This document shows, in pieces, positions 1,066 to 63,134 of a stretch of DNA of 64,000 nucleotides; position 1 is the stretch's first letter, and each line of letters opens with the position of its first letter. The notes under the pieces are model-generated. The model made no database searches. It worked only from the letters and a program-made list of their open reading frames with translations, and was not told the origin of the DNA. Location: NCBI GenBank assembly GCA_951406725.2, contig OX597824.1:76632001-76696000 (forward strand). The letters are read 5' to 3'. The translations under genes and the position numbers were made by a program. The DNA is from Octopus vulgaris. Lineage: Eukaryota.

Positions 1066-1491
1066 TTAAAGAACCCGCTATTTCCAGAATTTTTTTCTTT
1101 TCAAGTGTATCTCGTGACGGACTGAACTGGAAGGGTTTTATGTAGAGATGCTATCTTTCAATTAAGAGTTGTTCATGTTGCTGAGCTGACACATTCAAAG
1201 GTTTACCAGCGTTGATAAGTTTATCTGAATAATCTCATAGATACATACATACATACGCGCACGTACATACATACATACATGCATACATACATACATACAT
1301 ACATACATACATACATACATACATACATACATACATACATAATACATACAAACATACGCACGTACATACGTATATAAAAGACTATCTGCACACCATTTAT
1401 ATAAATACTAGCATTATGAGCCGTCGTAACCGGGTCATAGTGCTAGTGCATGTATATATGTGTATATATATATATATGTGTACATATTACA

Positions 1492-1552
<61 letters not shown>

Positions 1553-1723
1553 TATAAACAAATCAAATTGCGATAAAATAAAAATAATTATAATCGCTGG
1601 TATTACTAACACAAGCCATATATTTTTCATATATCAGTACATTAAAGCGAAATATGTACTAGGAATACAGAAGCTTGATAAATTAAGTGAAATGAAGATA
1701 AAAACATTTACTAAACCGGTAAT

Positions 1724-1795
1724 TCTCAGACTGCAGTTTCTTTCTTTTCAGCAATAAAGATAATTTATTTGCTCAGGGAGACGTCTTCAGTGAGA
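1724..1795 (-). ncRNA. Type I hammerhead ribozyme, Penelope-type (base of stem II mismatched)
   Basis: Minus strand reads UCUCA-CUGAAGA-[stem II with AGCAAAUAAA/UUUAUUGCU]-GAAA-CUGCAG-UC-UGAGA; stem I UCUCA/UGAGA and GUC triplet. Confidence 0.7.
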
Positions 1796-1940
1796 CCCTG
1801 TTTTTCTGGGATCCTAACTCACTAGAAGCATGTGCTTCTAATGATTTACTCTCCCTAGCTAATCATATCACTGCGCAGACATCTACACATAAAATACAAA
1901 ATACAAAGTTATATCTTGATATTGCTAGTGATAACAATAC

Positions 1941-2330
1941 TCAAAATCTATAACAGACTGGAATTGTAGGCCCGTCTCTTGCAATTTGGATCAATTGTGT
2001 CTTGTCCTCCCTCTTGTATAGAAGTGTGGCTACAATCCAGCCTACCTCTACTTCTGGGGGAACATTTAAAACTTTTATCCGGGACGTCCTACGTCCCAGA
2101 TATAAAGGTAAAAATAAAATATTTCCACTTTGCAAAGCTCGAGCCGAGTACTCCCTTGCACGCTCCGTTGACTCGAACCTTGCTTCAATTGTGGCGAATT
2201 TACCGTCTCTGGTTAGATGTCTTTCATAGTCGCACCAAGACACTTTTCGATGATGCTTTCCTCGAGGTGTTCAAATCTTTTTTTCTCTCTACATTGTATA
2301 CTTTATTGACAATAGTCTTTTCTTTAATTT
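1941..2330 (-). pseudogene. Decayed L1/Tx1-like LINE ORF1 fragment
   Basis: Non-repetitive reading frame containing LPLYLGRRTSRIKVLNVPPEV, similar to the RRM-like V.NVPP motif of Tx1-type ORF1; frameshifted upstream. Confidence 0.45.
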
Positions 2331-2949
2331 AATTTTTTATTTCGATTGGTGGTGTTATCCTAGTCACCGTCTTTGTCGGTGATCAATCCGAAATAGGTTT
2401 GTATTTCTTCCATTTTAATTTTAATGAGTTCGCACCTGCCGACTTTCTTCTATCGAAGGCATTCTAACAAAAATGCTTCCGTGTAGACGGTGAAAATATT
2501 GTCAATTTCCCCAAAGAGGGACACAATTCAATTTCTAAACAATAGCGAAAGCTCCTTCTCCCAAAGGTTACAGTTTACAATTATTTAACAAATGCAACAC
2601 AACAACGTTTCCCTTACGAGGAACCAACAAACCTGATAACAATAGTTAAACAGTAATAATAATAACAACAAATCTTATGGTGAATCAAAAAGCAGTACGC
2701 AGTTGATTTAATTTAATATATTCCCATTCATGTGAAACCACTTATTCAAGTTCAAGTCATTGATGCAATTTTATACCAATTGCTATTTTTACTTTTGTTA
2801 TGTTACGAATATATTATACTTTAGTTTGATTTTAATTATTACTTACTACATATAATTCAATTGTTATTATTATTTTTATTGTTAAAGTGGAAGTATCTGA
2901 CATAAAATAGAAAAATGTTTTTGTTTCACTTTTAACACGTAATACTGAA

Positions 2950-3285
2950 ATAGTGGAGAAGATATAATATTGCTATGGGCTCGCTCTAGACAAGAAGCTG
3001 AACATTTTTTGCCCATGAAACTACATGGACCCTAAGTAAGACATGTGTAAAATTTGAATGAAATTGGTTGTGTAGTTCTCACGTTTTAGGGAATCGTAGT
3101 GGAGAAGATATGATGTTGCTGTGGGCTCGCGCTAGGCAAAAAGTTAAAGATGACACTCCCCGGACCCTAAGTAAGGCATGTGTAAAATATGAATGAGATT
3201 GGATGTGTAGTTCTCAAGTTTTAGGGAAACACACAGACAGACAGACACACACACACACATTCTCATTTTTATATATATATAAAGA
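2950..3285 (-). mobile_element. Non-autonomous Helitron-like 5' portion with an internal tandem duplication of about 145 bp
   Basis: Ends TTTTATATATATATAAAGA|T (minus strand A|TC), the same terminus as the Helitrons at 14850 and 61633; TAGTGGAGAAGATAT...GTTTTAGGGAA occurs twice. Confidence 0.55.
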
Positions 3286-4322: not shown

Positions 4323-4544
4323 GAGTGTATTTTTACCTTGTTAACAATTAACACGGAAAAATAAATAAATAGTTACCAGGGCAGCAAAAAATGTCGTATT
4401 GACGAGTTTCGTTTTTTTCACTTTCCCGAAGAGAAGATTGCATTGTTTATACCATTTATTCTTTTGAATAGCATCAGTGGAATTTTCGGAACATGTGTAG
4501 AAAGTAAAAATACTTGTTTAAACCTGCGTTAACTCCATTTTTTA

Positions 4545-4613
<69 letters not shown>

Positions 4614-5684: not shown

Positions 5685-5693
<9 letters not shown>

Positions 5694-6043
5694 AGGGTTT
5701 ATAAGAGATACTACCACGCTGGAAATAGCAGCCAAAACTTGGCTCCAAAACCACATTAAATGTTCATACAGCACCAGGAGAGAAGACAAGGCGACAAAAT
5801 AAACTAGCAAAAACTTACTGGATAATTCCAGATCCCGAATTTATGACTACGCATAAAAAATACTTTACCTCATCAGAAAGAGCTAGAAATCCGGGATCTG
5901 GAATTATCCAGTAATTTTTTGCTAGTTTATTTTGACGCTTTGTCTTCTCTCCTGGTGCCTTATGAACAGTTAATGTGGTTTTAGAGTCAAGTTTTGGCTA
6001 CCATTTCCAGCGTGATAGTATCTCTTAGATACCCCAAATTATA
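5685..6043. mobile_element. Foldback element with ~155 bp inverted arms and ~45 bp spacer
   Basis: TAAGAGATACTACCACGCTGGAAAT...GGATAATTCCAGATCCCG is mirrored by CGGGATCTGGAATTATCC...ATTTCCAGCGTGATAGTATCTCTTA; abuts (TA)n. Confidence 0.85.
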
Positions 6044-8246: not shown

Positions 8247-8926
8247 TGTATGTGTATATATACATATACACACATATATATAAACACTTAAATGCATACA
8301 CACATACACATCGTGTGCATTATAAATGTAACGTTAAAAATAAGTGTTTTTATTACACAATGGCAAACCAGCGTCGACTGCATAAAAACCAAATACATGT
8401 GTAGCATCTAATATTTCTGTATACTCTTGGCAGTCAATAAGTAGTTTCTCCGAATGGTGGCTTTTTCAAACTATGTCAGCAAGTTACTGTTACTGAAGCG
8501 TCAAAGTTAGTGCTTAGAAAATAACACTAAACATTGTCTTCATAGGTATTGGGACCAACTCGAAATGGGAAAGAGTGACAATCGCAAGATTGACGAATTC
8601 TCCATAAAATTAGCTGTCACAGAGCGAAAAACATTCTGTCTGGTGAGAAAGCAATAGCATGATATGTGTTTCTGTCTCAATAAGCGTCTCCAGCAAAGCA
8701 GGTTTTCTTGGCTTCTTTCCAAGGGAACAAGGCGAAACGATTCATGAAAGCCAATGACTTGTTATTGGACAACAACGAATACCACATCAAAATATATACA
8801 TACTTACACACACACATATACACATATGTCTGTGTGTATCTATGAGTATGTGTCTGTGCATATATATATATATACATACACACACATACACATGTATATA
8901 CATGTTTATATATTTACACAAACACA

Positions 8927-9528
8927 GTGTACATTTAAACACATAAGCGGCATCCATCATAGGACTCCTTGCACGCTAGAGAGTACAGTTAAATTCCAAA
9001 CCACTATTAAGGATAAAATTTCGAAGGGAAGGAAAAATAAAAACATTTACTTTCTAACACCTGGATCAATGGTTTCAGACGTTTTTTTTTAGCAAATAAA
9101 ATAATTTGCTAGGCGAAGTCTTCTTCAGCAGGTACATCTTAGATTAAATATATATACACAAGGCAATCCAGTATATGCCCCGTGCTTATACTTTCTAAAT
9201 TTTCAAATCTACCGCGCAAGCGCAGCTCCTTGTCGGCAATAAATAAAATTGCCGGCTTTTCAATTCGAAAATTATCCAGAACAAGATTATCAATAATTAG
9301 TAATATCAAATGGTAATCAGAAATATAAAAAATTTCCACTACCAGTGGTCTAGCGTGTAAGAATTTAATCAATAGACTATATATTATTCACATAAATATA
9401 GTGTACATTTAGACACATAAGAAGCATCCATCATTTGATTCCTTGCACGCTAGAGAGAATAGTTAAATTCCAAACTGCTACTAGGGATAAAATTTCGAAG
9501 GGAATGAAGAATAAAAACATTTACCATC
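8927..9528 (-). mobile_element. Hammerhead-containing non-autonomous retroelement (Penelope pLTR or retrozyme-like), 474 bp unit plus a partial second unit
   Basis: 8927-9050 is repeated at 9401-9524; hammerhead at 9057-9135; homologous pieces at 50075-50335 and 54570-54741. Confidence 0.7.
9057..9135 (-). ncRNA. Type I hammerhead ribozyme (helix III mutated)
   Basis: GUACCUG-CUGAAGA-AGAC..UAGCAAAU/AUUUGCUA..GUCU-GAAA-CCAUUGA-UC-CAGGUGU; the sister copy at 50123 has CCAUGG-UC. Confidence 0.7.
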
Positions 9529-10199
9529 ATGTTTATATATTTATATATGTATGTAAGAGTATATACACATACGTTTGCATATACATAATTACACATGAGC
9601 ACACATATACAGACACATACACACATAAACACATACACACACAAACATACTGTCTCACACACACACAATGCATATATACATATATTTCTTTTCTTGTAAC
9701 GTTAAATCTTGAGGCAGATAAGGTATAAACAATAGCTTCTAAATATTTGGTTTAAAAACTTTGGAGATAAAAAAAGTCGTGTCTTTTTCTTTTTTTTTCC
9801 TTTGTAAGCGAATATTTACAAGCTATTGCTTGCAGCTCATCTGCTTCAAGATCCAGCATTTTAATAAAGAATTATTCCATGAATACTTGAAAGTCAGAAA
9901 ATCATATAAATTCTTATGACGTCAGCAATACACGCACACACATACATATAAACAAATACACACACATGCACACACTCACACACATACGTACGCATGCGTG
10001 GCTGGCTGGCTGGCTGGCTTGTTGGATGGATGGATGGATGAATATTCTCAGTATTGTCAACATGTTTATTCTTAATATGCTTGTTCTCAATAACATAAAC
10101 ATGTTCTCAATATAATTCTGACAGCACCGCGGTTCAATAGCTTGAATAACATAATATCTCCCATGAATTGCAACAAACCCTCATGCCATAGTCAAAGTT

Positions 10200-10486: not shown

Positions 10487-10540
<54 letters not shown>

Positions 10541-10594
10541 GTAATGCAATACTAGAGTATTGCTTTCCAGTAAAGAATAGCCCGTGAGGGAAAA

Positions 10595-11039
10595 ATATAC
10601 AAAGAAGTAAATATATGGCACAACGAAGTACCGATATTTACTGGAAATACGACGCTAATGTATAGCTTCACCGCGTATGTACTAGCAAAAATGCGTGTGT
10701 GCAACAAACTAGAAAAAATTGTCTTACCTCCAGGGAGAACATCTGAAAGATGAAATACCTGGAAAAGGATAATGTGGGACCTGCGCAGGTTTCAGATTTT
10801 TCAAGATATGTCTGCACCCATAAACTTGATCTATCTTCATCAGCCAAACATATACCACGACAACATTTCAGATGTTACCACATTAATGCCATTACACTCG
10901 ACTGAAACGCCGAAACGCTAACAGCACGAACGGTGAAGAAGTTTCAATAAATTAGTAATGCAATACATTAGCGTCGTATTATTACGTTCGCTATTTCCAG
11001 TAAACATCGGTACTTCGTTGTGCCATATATTTACTTCTT

Positions 11040-11046
<7 letters not shown>
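10595..11046. mobile_element. Foldback element with a hammerhead in its spacer
   Basis: ATATACAAAGAAGTAAATATATGGCACAACGAAGTACCGAT..TACTGGAAATA is inverted at 10993-11046; lies among (TA)n tracts. Confidence 0.85.
10772..10851 (-). ncRNA. Type I hammerhead ribozyme, intact core
   Basis: AUGUuuGG-CUGAUGA-AGAU..UCAAG/CUUGA..AUCU-GAAA-CCUGCGCAGG-UC-CCACAU; all conserved core bases present, GUC cleavage triplet. Confidence 0.85.
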
Positions 11047-11711: not shown

Positions 11712-12208
11712 CTCAAAGGTCTGGAAGAGTAGAGACATCACCCTCGCTACCAAATGCAGATTGGTGAAGGCGATCGTCTTCCCAATAGCAACATATGGAT
11801 GTGAGATCTGGACACTAAAGAAAGCTGACCAGAAGAGAATTAATGCATTCGAGCTTTGGTGTTGGAGAAGTTTTTACGGATTCCATGGACAGCGAGGCTC
11901 ACCAATGGAAAAGTTCTTAACCAGGTCAAGCCGAAACTGTCGCTAGAAGCTAGGATCACCAAGCATAGATTGGTATATTTTGGTCATATTATGCGGAGAA
12001 AATCCCTGGAGAAGAACATCATGCTCAGAATGGTCAATGGCAAGAGAGGAAGAGGCCGACCAAGAATCCGCTGGCTTGACACCATCAAGAGTGACACGGA
12101 AATGGCCATGGCTAATCTGAAAGAAGCGACCCAGGATAGAACTAGCCGGAGAACACTGATCCATCGAGTAATCCAGAGTCGACTTCGATTGAGCGGATAG
12201 TTAGTTAA
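11712..12208 (+). pseudogene. RTE/BovB-like LINE 3' end (ORF2 C-terminus plus TTAG tail)
   Basis: SRDITLATKCRLVKAIVFPIATYGCEIWTLKK..FELWCWR, frameshift near 11870, then LRIPWTAR..YFGHIMRR..GKRGRGRPRIRWLD..SRLRLSG*; tail TAGTTAGTTAA. Confidence 0.92.
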
Positions 12209-16214: not shown

Positions 16215-16808
16215 TACAAGGTGTGGTGAATATATTGTCATCTAAATTACGCAAAATTTAAAATAATACTGACATCTCATTTTAACAGATATATTTACCA
16301 AGATTACATAAAATTATCTTGAAATACTAAAGAGAAATTTTATTCAATAAAATCACAATTTGCTTCAATCACGGCCTCCAGATGACTTCGGAATCTTCTG
16401 CTTCTCCGCTGGACGGTCTCCATGTTTAAGTTGATGAATGCTGCCATAATCCCTGCCTTCATTTTATCTTTGGTGTTACAAGGAGTTTTGTCGGTCTCTC
16501 GCTCAACGACGGCCGACACATAATAATCAAGGGGGTTGGAATCTGGGCAGTTAGGTGGCCAGATGTTAGGGGTGATGTGGTCGCAGAAATTGTCTGACAG
16601 CCATGACTGGGTTCTCCTGCTTGTGTGGCATGGTGTAGAGTCCTGTTGCCAGACATGTTCGTATTGCAGGTTCCTGCTCGAATGCCAAGCAGTATAGCAT
16701 GTCATTTCCAAATTTCGTCATGGTGCTGTTTTCCTTGCAGACGGTGCCCAACTGAGCCTACGATACTGTGTAGTCGACAAAATCAAGAACAAACACTGCG
16801 CATGCACC

Positions 16809-17152: not shown

Positions 17153-18454
17153 TTAGCGGCAGGTTTGCAGTGATCAATGAAGCCCACGTTAAAAGAATTT
17201 CAAAGTGTGACTCTCTCGTTTGTTTTTATATCAGGAACAACGATTTTAATGTGCCTTTCCCTATTTGAAAAAAAAAAAAAGCTTAAGATGTGTTAAAGCT
17301 TAAAACTGCATGAAAACATAACAAGGCATCAACATATTTGATGTGAATTAACCAATAAATTTTAATTAATTTAAATTACACTCTTAATTTTCAAAACAAT
17401 CATTATTTCAATGTCTGATTCTGGTAAAAAAAAAAACAACAAAAAGTGCAATTGTAAGACAGCCAACCACAAATTTTAACATGCAGTGGGCAGTAAAGCT
17501 GATTTTTTTTTCTGTTAGCAATGCTCTGACAACTCATGGTGTATTTAGATTTTAATATCATATATATTAGGATGTATATTTTAGCGGTCTATTTTTATTC
17601 TAAATCGATGTTTAAATGTAATAATTCTGAAACGAGAAATCGCTGTAGGGAACCTATAGAGAATTAGCTAATAATGGTCGCATGTAAGCTATATATATAT
17701 TTTTTTCGCGTCATCATCATTCACTTGATTTTCCCTTCCTTTCGTTTATTATTTTTTTGGTATTATTTTCATTAATTTTTTATTTTCCTAATTCTATTAT
17801 TTCACGGGAGAGTTGCATGGTTGGTAAAAAAATGTATGAAAATGGATGATAATGTTCTTGTGAAAATATCTACTTATCATGATTTTACATTCATTTATTC
17901 GCTTCTTTATATATGTGTGTGTATGTGTGTATGTGCATTTGTGTGTGTGTATGTACGTGTGTGTGTGTGTGTGAGTGTGTGTGTAGGTTTTCCTCTGTTC
18001 AAATTTCAGAGAGAGGAAATAATGGCGCAGATATGTTGAACAAACGAAAACACCCTGTACATTGTTTCTTCTGACCTGTGGGCGTTTGAGCGCGCCCACA
18101 CGTTCTGTAATCTGTAGCTGAAATAAATTACTATTTGCACAAGAAATTAATGTGTTCACAAAAGGTTAGTGGCTTAAAATAATGTAGTAATTAATTATAT
18201 TTATTATACGTTCACTGTGAACACACTTCCATTACAAACAATAACACGAAGAAAAAAAGTGATAGCACAAAGCGAGTGCAACATACGCTGTAACACAGAA
18301 GTCGTATAATTATACGATATGCGTTATATCAAACTGTGGTTAACAGTCTGGCCAGACGAGTCTGTTTTGATTTTTATTAAACCTTTACTAATGAAGAGAG
18401 TTGACAGAAATGTAATGAAGTTAAAGAATCTGACGGAAAAAAAGATGTAATATT

Positions 18455-18685
18455 TATTTCTTTACTACCCACAAGGGGCTAAACACAGAGGGGACAAACA
18501 AGGACAGACAAACGGGTTAAGTCGATTACATCGACTCCAGTGCGTAACTGGTACTTAATTTATCGACCCCGAAAGGATTAAAGGCAAAGTCGACCTCAGC
18601 GGAATTTGAACCCAGAACGTAACGGCAGACGAAATACGGCTACGCATTTCGCCCGGCGTGCTAACGTTTCTGCCAGCTCGCCGCC
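18455..18685 (-). mobile_element. SINE family D with 11 bp TSD
   Basis: GGCGGCGAGCTGGCAGAAACG head, CCTTT.ATCCTTTCGGGGTCGATAAATTAAGTACC core; ATGTAATATTT on both sides. Confidence 0.92.
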
Positions 18686-18841
18686 TTATGTAATATTTGT
18701 AAAAAGATGTAATATTTGTTTGGGCTCGACACCCACCAGGATAAAAACCCCATTGAGATCAAGCTTGACTTTCGTCCTTTCCGAGTTTAACAATAACGCC
18801 GTGGGTCACATTTTCTTCTACTAGTGCTGTGAATATCGAAA

Positions 18842-19645
18842 GGCGGCGAGCTGGCAGAAACGTTAGCACGCCGGGCGAAATGCGTAGCCGTATTTCGTCT
18901 GCCGTTACGTTCTGAGTTCAAATTCTGCCGAGGTCGACTTTGCCTTTCATCCTTTCGGGGTCGATAAATTAAGTACCAGCTACGCACTGGGGTCGATGTA
19001 ATCGACATAATCCGTTTGTCTGTCATTGTTTGTCCCCTCTATGTTTAGCCCCTTGTGGGTAGTAAAGAAATAGAAATAGGTATTTCGTCTGCCGCTACGT
19101 TGTGAGTTCAAATTCCGCCGAAGTCGACTTTGCCTTCCATCTTTCGGGATCGATAAATTAAGTACCATTTACGCACTGGGGTCGATGTAATCGACCTAAT
19201 CCCTTTGTCTGTCCTTGTTTGTTCCCTCTATGTTTAGCCCTTTGTGGGCAATAAAGAAATGAGAAACGTTAGCACGTTGAGTGAAATGATTTGCCGTATT
19301 GCATCCGTCTTTACGTTCAAATTCTGTCGAGGTCGACTTTGCCTTTCATCCTTTTGGGTGCCGATAAATTAAATACCAGTTGCGTACTGGGGTCGATCTA
19401 ATCGATTAGCCCACTCCCCCAAAATCTCGAGCCTTGTGCCTAGAGTAGAAAATATTATATACCATTTATATATTTATAAAAAGGCGGGGAGCTGGCTGAA
19501 ACGTTCTGAGTTCAAATTACGCCGAAGTCGACTTTGCCTTTCATCCTTTCGGGGTCAATAAATTAAGTACCAGTTGCATAGTGGTGTCGATTTAATCGAC
19601 TGTTCCATCCCCCAAAATTTCGGGCCTTGTGCCTAGAGCAGAAAA
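18842..19645 (+). mobile_element. Tandem array of four SINE D units with two tail types
   Basis: Core GTCGACTTTGCCTT.CATC repeated near 18932, 19123, 19332 and 19527. Confidence 0.9.
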
Positions 19646-31297: not shown

Positions 31298-31753
31298 ATA
31301 CATACACACACACACACATATATATATATATATTTAGTGTAGGAAGAAATGGAGCTGAACGAAGATTTAACAAAATTCCTTTTTATTATTTTCTACATAT
31401 GTTTCAAAGGCTGCAAAGTCCCTAATTCGGATTGAATAAGGAGTCCATTTTGCAGCCTTCTCTTCAGGAAAATCCAGGAACTTAATTCTCCAACAAAATG
31501 CACAGCAAGCTTTTCGACAAACGCTCACGAGGAGCCAATGGAATAAATGGCACAAACTGTCTATCACTATGCGTTGACGCATATATATATATATATATAT
31601 ATATACGACGGGCTTCTTTCAGTTTCCGTCTACCAAATCGAGCTTTGGTCGGCCCGATGCTATAGCAGAAAACACTTGCCCGAGGTGCCATGCAGTGGGA
31701 CTGAACCCGAAACAAAGAGGTTAGGAAACAAGCTTCTTATCACACAGCCACGC
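31084..31753 (-). mobile_element. SINE family A split by a ~250 bp hammerhead-bearing insert
   Basis: Tail 31084-31260, head 31603-31753; insert 31334-31580 lies in the internal (TA)n. Confidence 0.8.
31388..31473 (-). ncRNA. Type I hammerhead ribozyme, intact
   Basis: AUUUUC-CUGAAGA-GAAGGCUGCAAA..UUUGCAGCCUUU-GAAA-CAUAUG-UA-GAAAAU, then AAUAAA; 6 bp stem I, 12 bp stem II, GUA triplet. Confidence 0.9.
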
Positions 31754-46242: not shown

Positions 46243-46474
46243 CATACATACGAAGGGCTTCCACTCAGTTTCGATCTGCCAAATTCACTCATAAGACATT
46301 AACTGGATCAAAAACCTGTGCAGTAGATCTGAACTAGAAACTACATGGCCGCGAAGGGAACAACCATGTCTGTGCCTAAATGTTAGCATAAATGTTCAAA
46401 GTGGCACATGCATAGTTACATGCACACGCACTTCTGCCTGTACGTAAATGCGTATATATATCCCGAATATTTAG

Positions 46475-46707
46475 GGCGGCGAGCTGGCAGAAACGTTAGC
46501 ACGCCGGGCGAAATGCGTAGCCGTATTTCGTCTGCCGTTATGTTCTGAGTTCAAATTCCGCCGAGGTCGACTTTGCCTTTCATCCTTTCGAGGTCGATAA
46601 ATTAAGTACCAGTTACGCACTGGCTTCGATGTAATCAACTTAATCCGTTTGTCTGTCCTTCTTTGTCCTCTCTGTGTTTGGCCTCTTGTGGGTTGTAAAG
46701 AAATAGG
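46475..46707 (+). mobile_element. SINE family D with 13 bp TSD
   Basis: TATCCCGAATATT at 46459 and 46708. Confidence 0.93.
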
Positions 46708-47175
46708 TATCCCGAATATTAATTAAGCGGTGAGTGTGTCGTAGATTTCGTATGGATGCTGCAAGATTTTGTCTGTAGAGTGTAAATATCTTTATACAGG
46801 TTTCAGTTCTATTTAAAGAGTGAGAGATGGAGGGAGAGAAAGAAAGAGAGAGAGAGTGGGGGTGATTTAGAATGATATTGAGCTTATCTTCAGAATTAGG
46901 ATGTCTTGTTTGTTGAATGGAATTGCTTTCTTGTTTGCAAAAGAAACAGGTCAAAGCTTTAAATACGGTGGTAAGGTTTCACTCTGTTTAAGATATCCAT
47001 GTGATGTTATAAGGGATAATGGACGCTTTTAAGTGCAAAGGATGACCGGTTATCTGTTCTTTTGTCATATCACTTAATGTTTCTCCCTATAGATGTTACT
47101 TAAGACAATGTTTGATTTCACTAAAATTTATCCACAAATGCTAGAAAAAAAATTTGTCCTGATATATACGAAGTA

Positions 47176-50074: not shown

Positions 50075-50335
50075 TACAGGCACATATTGGATTGGTCTCG
50101 TGTTCATATGTTTAATCTTGGCGTACCTGCTGAAGGAGACTTCGCTAAGAAAATTATTTTATTTCCTAAATAAAGTCAGAAACCATGGTCCAAGAAATAG
50201 ATGGTAAATGTTTTTAATTTTCTTTCCTTTCGAGAATTTATCCCTAATTAGTGGTTTGGACTTTAACTGTTCTTTCTAGAATAAAGGATTCATATGAAGG
50301 AAACCTCTTAATGTGTTTAAATGTACACTGTATTT
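50075..50335 (+). mobile_element. Second copy of the 8927-9528 hammerhead element; hammerhead at 50123-50195
   Basis: GUACCUG-CUGAAGG-AGACUU..AAGUC-A-GAAA-CCAUGG-UC-CAAGA; flanks homologous to the reverse complement of 8927-9180. Confidence 0.72.
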
Positions 50336-54338: not shown

Positions 54339-54569
54339 TTCTGTCTGTCTTTCTATCTGCCTGTGTATCTATCTGTCAGTCTGTCTAATATTATCGACAT
54401 TGGGGAAATTGCGTTCGTCCCTCTGGCCGATAACTGATGAGAAGTTGGTAACCTGTATTTTTTGTTCGCCTGTGTATTTAGTATATGTTCGTTCGTTTAT
54501 TTACTACACGTTTTTCGAATTATATATATATATATTTAATAATACCAGGGTAATATAGATTTTAGAAAT

Positions 54570-54737
54570 ATTTATTACCAGTGGCCTAGCGTATAAAAAA
54601 TTATTCAATAGACTATATATTATCAATATAAAATACAGTGTACATTCAAACACACTAAGAGGTCTCCACCACAGGACTCCCTTGCGATGTTCCTTCTAGC
54701 GTAAGGGAGTCCTCTTAGTGTGTTCAAATGTACACTG

Positions 54738-54741
<4 letters not shown>
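54570..54741. mobile_element. Third, folded-back fragment of the 8927-9528 element
   Basis: ACCAGTGGCCTAGCGT..TAGACTATATATTAT..GTGTACATT matches 9341-9450; 54632-54741 is an interrupted palindrome. Confidence 0.75.
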
Positions 54742-54820
<79 letters not shown>

Positions 54821-56214
54821 TGTATGTATATATATATATATATGTCATATTTTCCGTTTGATGTCTTTTTATTGAATCCTGAAAAAAACGTGTGTGTTTA
54901 TGTCATGTTATAAAAACAATTTTAAATTAACCTCATGAGATTATCTGTACTTTTGTTGGGCGCAAATTTATTATTCTTAAACAAGACTGCAGTCCGACGA
55001 TGGCTTAGCTGACCGAAACGTCAAAGTCACTGTCAACTATATACATGTGTAAGAATTATATGCGTGTTTGCGTGCGCACACGCGTGTGTGTATGTATATA
55101 TGAAGCCAGACTAAAGAGATGGACGAAATGTTGCTAAGGATTTTGTCAGGCATGATAACGAATCTCCCAACTGATCGCCTTTGAAGCAAGAAAAATAATA
55201 AAAGAACGAATTATATCTGGAATGAATTTCAAAATCGTATTTGAAGCATGAAGGTGTCTTACTGGAATAAACTGTGATCAGAATTTAAGAGTTCGCTGTA
55301 AAAAGATAGATTAAATAAAATAAAATGAAATAAGAACAAAAGGAAGAGTTTTTAACGCAGTAAATTTCAAATTATATAGAAAGAATGTGCTTATTATGTT
55401 AACCATGATTCTGGATTTGAAATTATGGTAAAATATTATAACACGAGCCAGAGGTTAGCATGGGGAATAATTAAAGGATTTTATGAGATTTCGGCATAAA
55501 GACTGATCGTAATATTGAATCAACACTGATCAGATTTTATAGAAATGAAGGACGATGAATGTGACAGAGAAATGAGAACCTAAAACGAGAATGTGAATCG
55601 CTAATTACTCGTATCACTGGTTAGGATAAAAAGCCATTAGAACGATTTTGGTGAAGGCAAATACTCATAAAACTTTGTCTGACAGCAAACGCAGAATGTG
55701 TGGTAAAGTGACGAAAATATTTAGCCATTTTCTAAGCGAGCCAACATTTAAAAAAAAAGTGTAAACGTAAGCGTAACTGTATCGGTAACAAGATTTTATG
55801 GTATTTTCCCATAGAGACTATTGAAGCAGGTAAACTATTGAAGCAGGTAAACCAGAAAACTTGAGATTTTTGCATGAAAAAATAAAAGTAATAATAATAA
55901 TAGAGCATTGGGTATGGTAAAAAGTACATGAACAAAAGGGTGGAAGATATACCTAGATTCTCAACACTACACATTATCCAAATAAATAGCCCTTCTAGGA
56001 ACAGCTCACATCCTATGCAAGATACATATAAAAGGATGAAAGGCAAATTCAATTATACAACCTAAACAAAACAATTCACAAATACTAGACAGACTCTCTA
56101 CAGCAAATATCCGATGAAATAAACTACCATCAGAAAGCCGGATACCCAACGCATTAGACACACAATACAAATACTAATACGACAAAACACTGCACAACAC
56201 CTCATAAAAAAACA

Positions 56215-61644: not shown

Positions 61645-62030
61645 TTGTATTCAGTGCTCGGGTGCACCATATGCGTATAAAGCATATGCAGTAATGTACA
61701 AATGTCTGGAAAGGGAACAGTGTATGAGTCAGATACATGCTTGCGTGTGTATGGAGGGGAGAAAATCAGGTGTAGTGTTGGCGAATCTCAGGAAGTATGG
61801 AAGTTTTGAAGGATGCAGTGCTCCGACAACTAACAACTGATACCGGCAGTTTGTTCCATACTTCAGCAACTCTTAGCATGACAAAATGTTTCCGAAACTC
61901 ATGGGAGCTGTGCTGTTTTCTGACTTTGTAAACATGTCCACGGTTGTTAGACAGGTGGAGTTTGAAAAGGTGCTCAGAGTTACTGTTAGTAAGATGGTTA
62001 ATACTTTTATAAGCTTTTCCGATCATATGA
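61645..62030 (-). pseudogene. CR1-clade LINE 3' fragment
   Basis: RGHVYKVRKQHSSHEFRKHFVMLRVAEVWNKLPVSVVSCRSTASFK, the typical CR1/L2 ORF2 C-terminus. Confidence 0.85.
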
Positions 62031-63134
62031 CAACAAAGTGTGACCTAAGGATTTCTTTGCTATTTCTATTAAATTAAGCGAATTCATTAAGACCGCCACC
62101 TTAATTTGACCCGTCACAATTCTATATAGATTAAAATAGACTTAAACCCCAAAGTGTTTCAACTGTAATCTTCACATCTAATAATAATCGTACTAAACTT
62201 ATTGGTGCTTCAATTGTGTACATGTGTATGCTAGTATATTTGTTTCCACTCAAGATAGAAGAGAACGTTATTTGTTTAAATCCATGTGAACCTTGAGCGA
62301 GCAGACCGATAATTATAGGTATTTCAACCTTGATCATCCCCTCTTTTCGGCAGACATTTTCTAAGGTGGCCTTTATTTTACGATACTAAGGTGTATTTTG
62401 AAAGAGGTTTCGTTGCTGTATCTAATGGCTCACGTGACATGCAGTCACTTCACCACCTTGGCCTGCACTCTCGTGTTTGTAAATGGTGAGTTGCGATTAG
62501 CTTGTTGGCCGTTTGTTTGTTTAGCTGACTGGCTGGTTGGTTGGTTGGCTGGTGAAGCTGTTGAACTGTAGTGGTGTATGTATGTATGTATGTATGTGTG
62601 TGTCTTTCGGAAGAGGTTATCTATTTGCCACAACCGGTTATAAAGAAAGTTGTCATTGGTGGTGGGGGTGGGCAGGATGGTAAAGCACGCTTCTGTAGAG
62701 ATGTGATTGAAGTCAGTAAGATGGTGAAAACATTCATATCGCTTCAAGCTACAAACAACAATAATAATAGGCGCAAAAATGATAGGTGTAGAGGACAAGA
62801 AGGGTAAACATACTTACAAGCGGAAGAACAAGAGCGCACATGCGCGCATACACACGAGGAAACACAGAGACTAATACATAGATGCTCATGAAATGGATAT
62901 GTCTTTCTATATATATATGAGTGTATACATATTTCTGTATACAAATGCATATATATATATATGTATGCATGTATGTATATATATGTATATATGTATGTAT
63001 ATATATGCATGTATGTATGTATATATATATATATATATATGTAAATATGCATACATATATACATAAATATATGTAAATATATATGTATCTATATATACAC
63101 ACACATATATATATATACACATACATTCAATTTT

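What the first reader, a model, noticed from the sequence alone, without database searches (positions are those of the whole stretch)
8927..9528. Longer-than-unit insert (474 bp period) starting close to its own ribozyme cleavage site
8927-9050 recurs at 9401-9524. On the minus strand the element begins about 9 nt downstream of the position equivalent to the cleavage site (9063+474). That is what reverse transcription of a self-cleaved or circular RNA (retrozyme) or a Penelope pLTR would leave. Copies at 50075 and 54570 cover other parts of the same unit, and combining the 9057 and 50123 copies reconstructs a canonical hammerhead.
Basis: partly seen in the sequence, partly recalled or inferred. 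Interest (0 to 1): 0.7.

Follow-up and report, generated by a model that had tools for sequence, protein, structure and literature searches.

The report
Hammerhead-bearing mini Penelope element insertion
This 611-base insertion is an old copy of an abundant, non-coding jumping element of the Penelope type that carries a self-cutting RNA motif; its overlapping ends are the usual layout of that class, and the idea that it was copied from a self-cut or circular RNA is possible but not shown.

Summary
8920-9053 recurs at 9394-9527 (period 474, 116 of 134 identical), and a type I hammerhead on the minus strand would cut at 9064/9063. A one-off local duplication is refuted: the head-to-tail junction recurs at 54630 and in public contigs, and 1,440-3,239 contigs were laid in each of three large runs. 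[quoted passage not shown] The link between 5' end and cleavage site is not established: 2 of 12 mappable 5' ends lie within 10 nt of it (P 0.10-0.27), and my read-laying was blind at that spot. The 3' ends are not at the cut site. Circular RNA was not testable, and no parent ORF was found. Verdict: a non-autonomous PLE derivative of the animal non-LTR retrozyme kind, a new member of a known kind. This scan reported similar PLE-end elements in other genomes.

The parts
8901..8916 (.). Target-site duplication, left copy (16 bp)
   Evidence: Identical to 9528-9543; the 16-mer occurs only at these two places in the window; 29 of 4851 random pairs of similar TA/CA-rich flanks reach 16 bp or more, and 0 of 3746 against the observed right flank
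9528..9543 (.). Target-site duplication, right copy
8917..9527 (-). Whole insertion, 611 bp = 1.29 units: 137-bp partial 3' end (9527-9391) followed by one full 474-bp unit (9390-8917)
9391..9527 (-). 5'-truncated upstream partial copy (pseudo-LTR-like); its 5' end lies 9-10 nt past the position equivalent to the cleavage site
   Evidence: 116 of 134 identical to 8920-9053; shares two 1-nt gaps and several substitutions with it against copy 50079-50335
9358..9390 (-). Tail-like 30-35 nt extension just beyond the main 3' end
   Evidence: Summed contig depth in bin 9358-9378 is 2.1, 14.7, 12.6 and 6.8 times that of bin 9337-9357 in X1, X3, X10, X19; inferred tail, depth is not copy number
9232..9294 (-). 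Least represented part of the unit (depth trough), still bridged by diverged paralogous contigs
   Evidence: Depth 20-55 times below the 3' end in X1, X3, X10; 5 of 32 listed pieces bridge 9263 with 31 or more letters each side and 11-14% other letters
9058..9134 (-). Type I hammerhead ribozyme motif, decayed: core 9128-9122, stem II 9121-9118/9080-9077 with long extension, GAAA 9076-9073, stem III broken at 9066, predicted cut between 9064 and 9063
   Evidence: majority letter at 9066 in laid contigs restores GUC; activity not tested
8917..8922 (-). Shared 3' end of the family, 143-146 nt downstream of the cut (inferred reverse-transcription start)
   Evidence: Same end in copies ending at 50335 and about 54747; loose TA-repeat letters before 8920 in 24 contigs of X1 and 5 of X19 (table 7)
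50079..50335 (+). 5'-truncated solo copy with hammerhead (palindromic stem III, broken stem I)
   Evidence: 80% to 8920-9179; no TSD of 6 bp or more found
54532..54750 (.). Head-to-head inverted pair of truncated copies inside TA repeats; the left arm crosses the head-to-tail junction and extends about 100 nt past the main 3' end

Best explanation
A non-autonomous, non-coding Penelope-like element (a 474-nt unit with a type I hammerhead, the kind called animal non-LTR retrozyme) that was inserted by a PLE reverse transcriptase/endonuclease in trans. Steps: (1, inferred) a tandem source locus is transcribed on the minus strand; (2, inferred by analogy with the anole Poseidon element) the enzyme nicks TA-rich DNA and starts cDNA synthesis internally, mostly about 145 nt past the hammerhead cut site and sometimes 30-40 nt further (tail); (3, shown) here it copied one full unit plus 137 nt and left a 16-bp TSD; (4, shown in part) most copies are shorter 5'-truncated stubs, some in inverted pairs. 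The 5' end near the cut site is either ordinary truncation or the end of an RNA trimmed by the upstream hammerhead; the data do not decide. The copy is old and probably dead (about 6-7% private change in each repeat).
For: TSD 16 of 16. The two repeats share derived states against the other copies and carry 7 and 9 private changes (2 more sites differ in both), as expected for one source then neutral decay. Same 3' end in 3 of the 4 copy segments in the window that reach that position; the fourth runs on into the tail side. TA-repeat loose ends at 8920; depth falling from the hammerhead towards 9290; a step at 9358; 4 opposite-strand joints among the 15 shown of 89; junction joints in 9 of the 12 rows shown of table 5c. 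These match PLE traits described in PMC8557442 (passages: partial tandems, inverted truncated copy, 30-40 bp tail, TA microsatellite bias), PMC3846280 (passages: 8-10 bp TSDs, pLTR sufficient in trans) and PMC11167929 (parts 1-2 of 4: RT starts inside the RNA downstream of the hammerhead at two sites that bound the tail; AT-rich targets). The unit folds well below shuffles as a circle (z -5.9, 0 of 60 shuffles as low), and a helix closes around the 3' end and tail (I1, I4; fold).
Against: No autonomous parent was found: no Pfam RT or GIY-YIG match and no protein relatives (the single hit is an unrelated repeat translation). The 16-bp TSD is longer than the 8-10 bp in the PMC3846280 passages and would also fit a LINE. 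Summed contig depth is not copy number and depends on how far this copy has drifted. The folding signal is not specific: linear z -4.6, plus strand z -4.6, and 3 of 48 control windows score as low as -5.9 (10 shuffles each). The 16 of 16 TSD identity has a probability of only 0.10 if the TSDs aged like the repeats.
Confidence: 0.7

Rival explanations
1. True circular retrozyme cycle: the hammerhead cuts tandem RNA into 474-nt monomers, these are ligated into circles, and RT runs 1.29 times round the circle.
For: Unit-level continuity in paralogues (5 of 32 pieces bridge the trough); 33% GC and strong circular fold; the majority stem III looks like 3 bp plus a 3-nt loop, more stable than minimal PLE hammerheads (tables 3, 4); the two repeats come from one source; mechanism proposed in PMC7229834 (sections 14, 17) and PMC4209133 (passages).
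Against: A circle gives no reason to stop near the junction on the second pass after crossing it once. Only one hammerhead and no dimer or multimer in the window. Fold energy does not favour the circle over the linear form. Most depth lies on the pLTR-sized part.
Confidence: 0.2
2. The window copy and a few paralogues are internally deleted by-products of a full-length autonomous PLE; most family members are simply its truncated pLTR ends, and 474 bp is not a self-propagating unit.
For: Depth at the 3' end is 20-55 times that of the trough in X1, X3 and X10; sister variants diverge around the hammerhead (loose ends at 9083-9087, 9117, 9135).
Against: Only 2-4% of laid contigs run on into unlike sequence; none of the 24 loose-end rows shown (of 816) lies in 9140-9390; the trough is bridged in three organisms; no coding remnant found. 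This reading overlaps the best explanation and differs only in whether the short unit spread on its own.
Confidence: 0.3
3. One-off local tandem duplication after insertion of a shorter element.
For: The two repeats are each other's closest copy in the window (86.6% vs 84.2% and 82.7% to the 50079 copy).
Against: The head-to-tail junction is present at 54630, in 2 of 32 listed pieces and in 9 of 12 rows shown of table 5c; the TSD encloses both repeats.
Confidence: 0.03
4. SINE-like element mobilised by a conventional LINE (RTE, CR1, Dong/R4) rather than by a PLE.
For: 16-bp TSD; LINE-like fragments are present in the window (ORFs, family names recalled); PMC7229834 (section 17) leaves LINEs open as helpers.
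Against: No poly(A) or simple-repeat tail of its own; an internal fixed 3' end with optional extension and head-to-head inversions are PLE traits.
Confidence: 0.07

Closest known systems
Endonuclease-bearing Penelope-like elements and their pLTR insertion anatomy (PMC8557442, PMC3846280, PMC11167929, PMC4209133)
   Same: Partial tandem, fixed 3' end downstream of a type I hammerhead, tail-like extension, 5' truncation, inverted pairs, TA-rich targets, TSD.
   Different: No RT/GIY-YIG ORF; unit only 474 bp; 3' end about 145 nt past the cut (about 85-92 nt in the anole Poseidon, computed from the paper's +26 and +111-118); long branched stem II; TSD 16 bp.
Animal non-LTR retrozymes (Cervera and de la Pena 2020, PMC7229834; Li, Clavereau and Pollet 2026, bioRxiv 10.64898/2026.07.22.740005)
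   Same: Non-coding, low-GC, head-to-tail unit with a type I hammerhead, TSD longer than 4 bp, strongly self-paired; length within the 51-972 bp range of the 2026 preprint, which argues that such elements are non-autonomous PLE derivatives.
   Different: Longer than the 170-400 nt circles shown in coral, mussel and axolotl; only 1.29 units and one decayed hammerhead here; no circular RNA shown; most copies appear to be truncated stubs.
R2 retrotransposon 5' ribozyme (PMC6765202, passage; role in defining the RNA 5' end partly recalled)
   Same: Would be the functional analogue if hammerhead cleavage sets the template 5' end.
   Different: HDV-like ribozyme, autonomous, rDNA-specific; the analogy is untested here.

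Membership tests
Penelope-like element (non-autonomous derivative) | Partial-tandem arrangement forming a pLTR | tested here: met
   137-bp truncated 3' end before a full unit
Penelope-like element (non-autonomous derivative) | Type I hammerhead motif upstream of the 3' end | tested here: met
   Core motif and stems I, II; stem III restored in the contig majority; no Rfam hit
Penelope-like element (non-autonomous derivative) | Fixed 3' end with optional 30-40 bp tail | tested here: met
   Three window ends at 8917-8922 equivalents; loose ends at 8920; depth step at 9358; the tail rests on summed depth only
Penelope-like element (non-autonomous derivative) | Inverted 5'-truncated copies; AT-rich or (TA)n targets | tested here: met
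   54532-54750; 4 opposite-strand joints of 15 shown
Penelope-like element (autonomous) | ORF with RT and GIY-YIG endonuclease | tested here: not met
   No match
Penelope-like element (non-autonomous derivative) | Homology to the pLTR of an autonomous PLE in the same genome | not testable with these tools
   No genome held; contig sequences are not returned
Animal non-LTR retrozyme | Low GC (<45%), non-coding, TSD longer than 4 bp | tested here: met
   33% GC, 16-bp TSD, no protein match; PBS and PPT were not searched for
Animal non-LTR retrozyme | Two or more consecutive units, each with a complete hammerhead (definition of an active element in the 2026 preprint) | tested here: not met
   1.29 units and one hammerhead at this locus; arrays elsewhere in the genome could not be tested
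Animal non-LTR retrozyme | Self-cleavage and monomeric circular RNA | not testable with these tools
   Needs in vitro transcription and RNase R or northern assays
   2 of 12 ends within 10 nt, P 0.10-0.27; the laid stretch ended at 9527, so ends just beyond were invisible

The most novel reading that the evidence does not exclude
A very abundant 474-nt PLE-parasitic RNA whose genomic copies record both ends of the template: the 3' end at the internal RT start and the 5' end at the hammerhead cut. If 5' ends pile up just after the cut site across thousands of copies, this would be genomic evidence that PLE-type hammerheads do cleave in vivo and define the transposition template, which the in vitro Poseidon study did not see (cleavage dispensable, no RNA-seq read ends at the site; PMC11167929). 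The short unit makes linear versus circular templates directly testable.
Probability: 0.2. Interest if true: 0.65.

Novelty: new member of a known kind. Interest (0 to 1): 0.3.

Why it matters
As it stands it adds one family, probably from an octopus (recalled from the window's SINEs and microsatellites, not shown by any search), to a described class; three literature searches listed no paper whose title or abstract describes such a family in cephalopods, and their supplements and Dfam/Repbase were not seen. It would matter more if end-mapping showed a pile-up at the cut site, because the function of hammerheads in PLEs is stated to be unclear (PMC8557442, passage), and this family has many copies, a short unit and a near-canonical ribozyme.

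Tried and rejected
Own genome: none held, so no genome-wide end map. Rfam on the window and on both hammerhead copies: no hammerhead family among the rows listed (one search showed 150 of 387 rows, mostly microsatellite noise). DNA pattern scans: 0 hits in metagenome and viral contigs; 4 and 1 hits with a second pattern, all chance matches limited to the pattern itself. Coding remnant: I suspected a PLE N-terminal peptide on the plus strand and also tested the 82-aa minus-strand ORF 9139-9387. Pfam, three homologue searches, the Atlas (52) and PDB (57) gave nothing; the one profile hit (P0004) is a translated short tandem repeat with no real likeness. Rejected as unsupported; these were short queries and weak searches. 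Expression: no RNA holder listed; run X19 is only guessed to be RNA and is no evidence on transcription. None of the 20 holder rows had half of the words, and no listed piece spans the stretch, so the empty site was not tested. table 6 (places where many molecules begin or end) was empty, but contigs cannot show this. Fold as evidence for a circle: rejected, since linear and plus-strand folds score alike. The depth drop across the cut site was not used, because this copy is divergent at 9051-9066. Lunse et al. (PMC5785218) was not held. Look-ups of earlier findings by sequence and by genome gave nothing; by relatives gave one unrelated minisatellite. bioRxiv supplements were closed and PMC supplements were not opened; they may list this family.

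Full report
Setting. The window is AT-rich animal DNA full of microsatellites and SINE-like repeats. I take it to be an octopus from recall of those SINEs; no call shows this. No whole genome is held, so family-level evidence comes from the window's copies and from one laying of public contigs.

Observation. 8907-9050 aligns with 9380-9524 at 86.9%; the ungapped core is 116 of 134 identical at offset 474. The insert is 8917-9527 and is flanked by an exact 16-bp repeat at 8901-8916 and 9528-9543. That 16-mer occurs only there in the window; 29 of 4851 random pairs of similar TA/CA-rich flanks reach 16 bp, and 0 of 3746 against the observed right flank. On the minus strand the order is: 137-bp partial 3' end, then a full unit with a hammerhead motif at 9134-9058, then the 3' end at 8917-8920.

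Ribozyme. The core motif starts at 9128. A constrained fold gives a 6-bp stem I and a 4-bp stem II with a long extension; the free fold of the 96-nt region has z -2.1 but does not form stem II as required. Stem III is broken by the letter at 9066. Most laid depth has the GUC form there in all four runs (table 3, 40 of 196 rows shown), and only a few percent of depth lacks a base at 9066 or 9069 (table 4), so the common form is probably 3 bp plus a 3-nt loop and the palindromic form at 50123 a minority. The majority also differs at 9059, so the family's proximal stem I may be shorter than in this copy. My strict scan missed both copies and Rfam has no hit. Activity is untested.

Family. Contigs laid: 3061 (X1), 3239 (X3), 1440 (X10), 302 (X19), from organisms coded A, B, E and A; I laid 4 of the 24 runs listed. 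The head-to-tail junction at 9390/9391 also exists at 54630, in 2 of 32 listed pieces with 31 or more letters each side, and in 9 of 12 rows shown of table 5c. So the repeat is not a local accident. The two repeats share two 1-nt gaps and several substitutions against the 50079 copy; the gap near 8943 is also absent from both arms at 54.6 kb. They carry 7 and 9 private changes, with 2 sites differing in both. This fits one source and later neutral decay. An unchanged 16-bp TSD has probability 0.10 under that age, which is tolerable but counts slightly against it.

Ends. The 3' side is the fixed one. The insert, the 50079-50335 copy and the right arm at 54.7 kb all end at the 8917-8922 equivalent; the left arm at 54.6 kb runs on about 100 nt and stops at a TA repeat. 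Loose TA-repeat letters precede 8920 in 24 contigs of X1 and 5 of X19 (table 7, 24 of 816 rows shown). Summed depth steps up 2.1-, 14.7-, 12.6- and 6.8-fold at 9358, which fits a 30-35 nt tail, and falls from the hammerhead to a trough at 9232-9294 that is 20-55 times below the 3' end in X1, X3 and X10. The tool warns that summed depth is no copy number, and alignability to this old copy shapes it. The trough is bridged by 5 of 32 listed pieces with 11-14% other letters, in three organisms, so the short unit exists at other loci (two of the five may be one locus). The 5' ends I could place (4 in the window, and 8 from the 4 opposite-strand joints among 15 shown of 89, read as inverted-pair junctions) range from 134 nt before to 103 nt after the cut; 2 of 12 are within 10 nt, P 0.10-0.27 depending on the range assumed. 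This neither shows nor excludes clustering. The laid stretch ended at 9527, so contigs that preferred the right repeat ran off the end exactly where a pile-up would be.

Structure. The unit folds at -117.9 kcal/mol as a circle, z -5.9, 0 of 60 shuffles as low. Linear and plus-strand folds give z -4.6 each, and 3 of 48 control windows (of 49 free of simple repeats) are as low as -5.9 with 10 shuffles each. The RNA is well self-paired, with a helix enclosing the 3' end and tail, but this does not argue for a circle. No covariation test was possible.

Coding. No evidence for a PLE ORF remnant on either strand.

Mechanism. Shown: a single insertion with TSD, more than one unit long; shared 3' end; inverted pair; abundance. 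Inferred: PLE machinery in trans, internal priming about 145 nt past the cut, and the tail as a second start site. The inference rests on PMC11167929 (parts 1-2 of 4 read: internal RT starts 111-118 nt into the ORF, cut site at +26, tail between two starts, AT-rich targets, cleavage not needed in vitro, no read ends at the cut), PMC8557442 and PMC3846280 (passages). A linear tandem RNA trimmed by the upstream hammerhead explains the 5' end economically, random truncation explains it equally well on present numbers, and a circle explains the overlap but not the stop position.

Comparison. It works like a PLE end; it is not an autonomous PLE (no ORF). It meets the compositional traits of animal non-LTR retrozymes (PMC7229834, sections 14 and 17 and passages) but not the two-hammerhead definition of an active one at this locus (bioRxiv 10.64898/2026.07.22.740005, parts 1-3 of 5 read), a preprint that files such elements as non-autonomous PLE derivatives. 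More-than-unit copying from a circle was already proposed for PLEs in PMC4209133 (passages). Penelope repeats are known to be abundant in coleoid cephalopods (PMC8967140, passages), and 235 hammerhead loci were counted in giant squid (PMC6962438, passage). Searches listed no description of this family or of 5' ends clustering at PLE hammerhead cuts; supplements were not seen. Earlier notes of this scan describe similar elements in other genomes; they are unchecked, and one gave me the PMC3846280 lead.

Verdict. Real, correctly described, and mostly explained by known PLE and retrozyme biology. Interest 0.3; the open point worth an assembly-level test is whether 5' ends cluster at the cut site (probability about 0.2).

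Noticed in passing
window 31335-31475 (minus) and 4490-4550: A second hammerhead family: clean type I motif with a long stem II and palindromic stem III (cut near 31394), ending about 55-60 nt downstream in a TA repeat; a 70%-identical end fragment lies at 4490-4595.
   Followed up: partly
window 10537-11046: A third hammerhead-bearing element between two (TA)n tracts: CUGAUGA core at 10843 (minus) with a longer stem III, and 55-bp inverted repeats 98% identical (10595-10649 / 10992-11046); looks younger than the finding.
   Followed up: partly
window 54994-55030 (plus): Decayed minimal hammerhead-like motif about 250 nt from the inverted pair.
   Followed up: no
window 5685-6043: About 360-bp palindrome, 84% self-complementary, fold z about -18; MITE-like or an inverted insertion.
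   Followed up: no
window 18450-19077: 238-bp inverted arms 95% complementary, overlapping a 189-bp tandem; a third copy at 46472-46710.
   Followed up: no
table 7, loose ends at 9083-9087, 9117, 9135: Sister subfamilies share stem II of this hammerhead; some show a canonical CUGAUGA core, so better-preserved ribozymes exist in these genomes.
   Followed up: no
window 9293-9297 equivalent: Depth rises between bins 9274-9294 and 9295-9315 in X1, X3 and X19 (not X10), and the 54532 arm ends there at a TA repeat: possibly a third, rarer 3' end about 100 nt past the main one.
   Followed up: partly
window 11844-12200, 16340-16717, 61766-62044: ORF fragments that look like an RTE LINE C-terminus, a Tc1/mariner transposase and a CR1-type C-terminus (family names recalled, not searched).
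   Followed up: no
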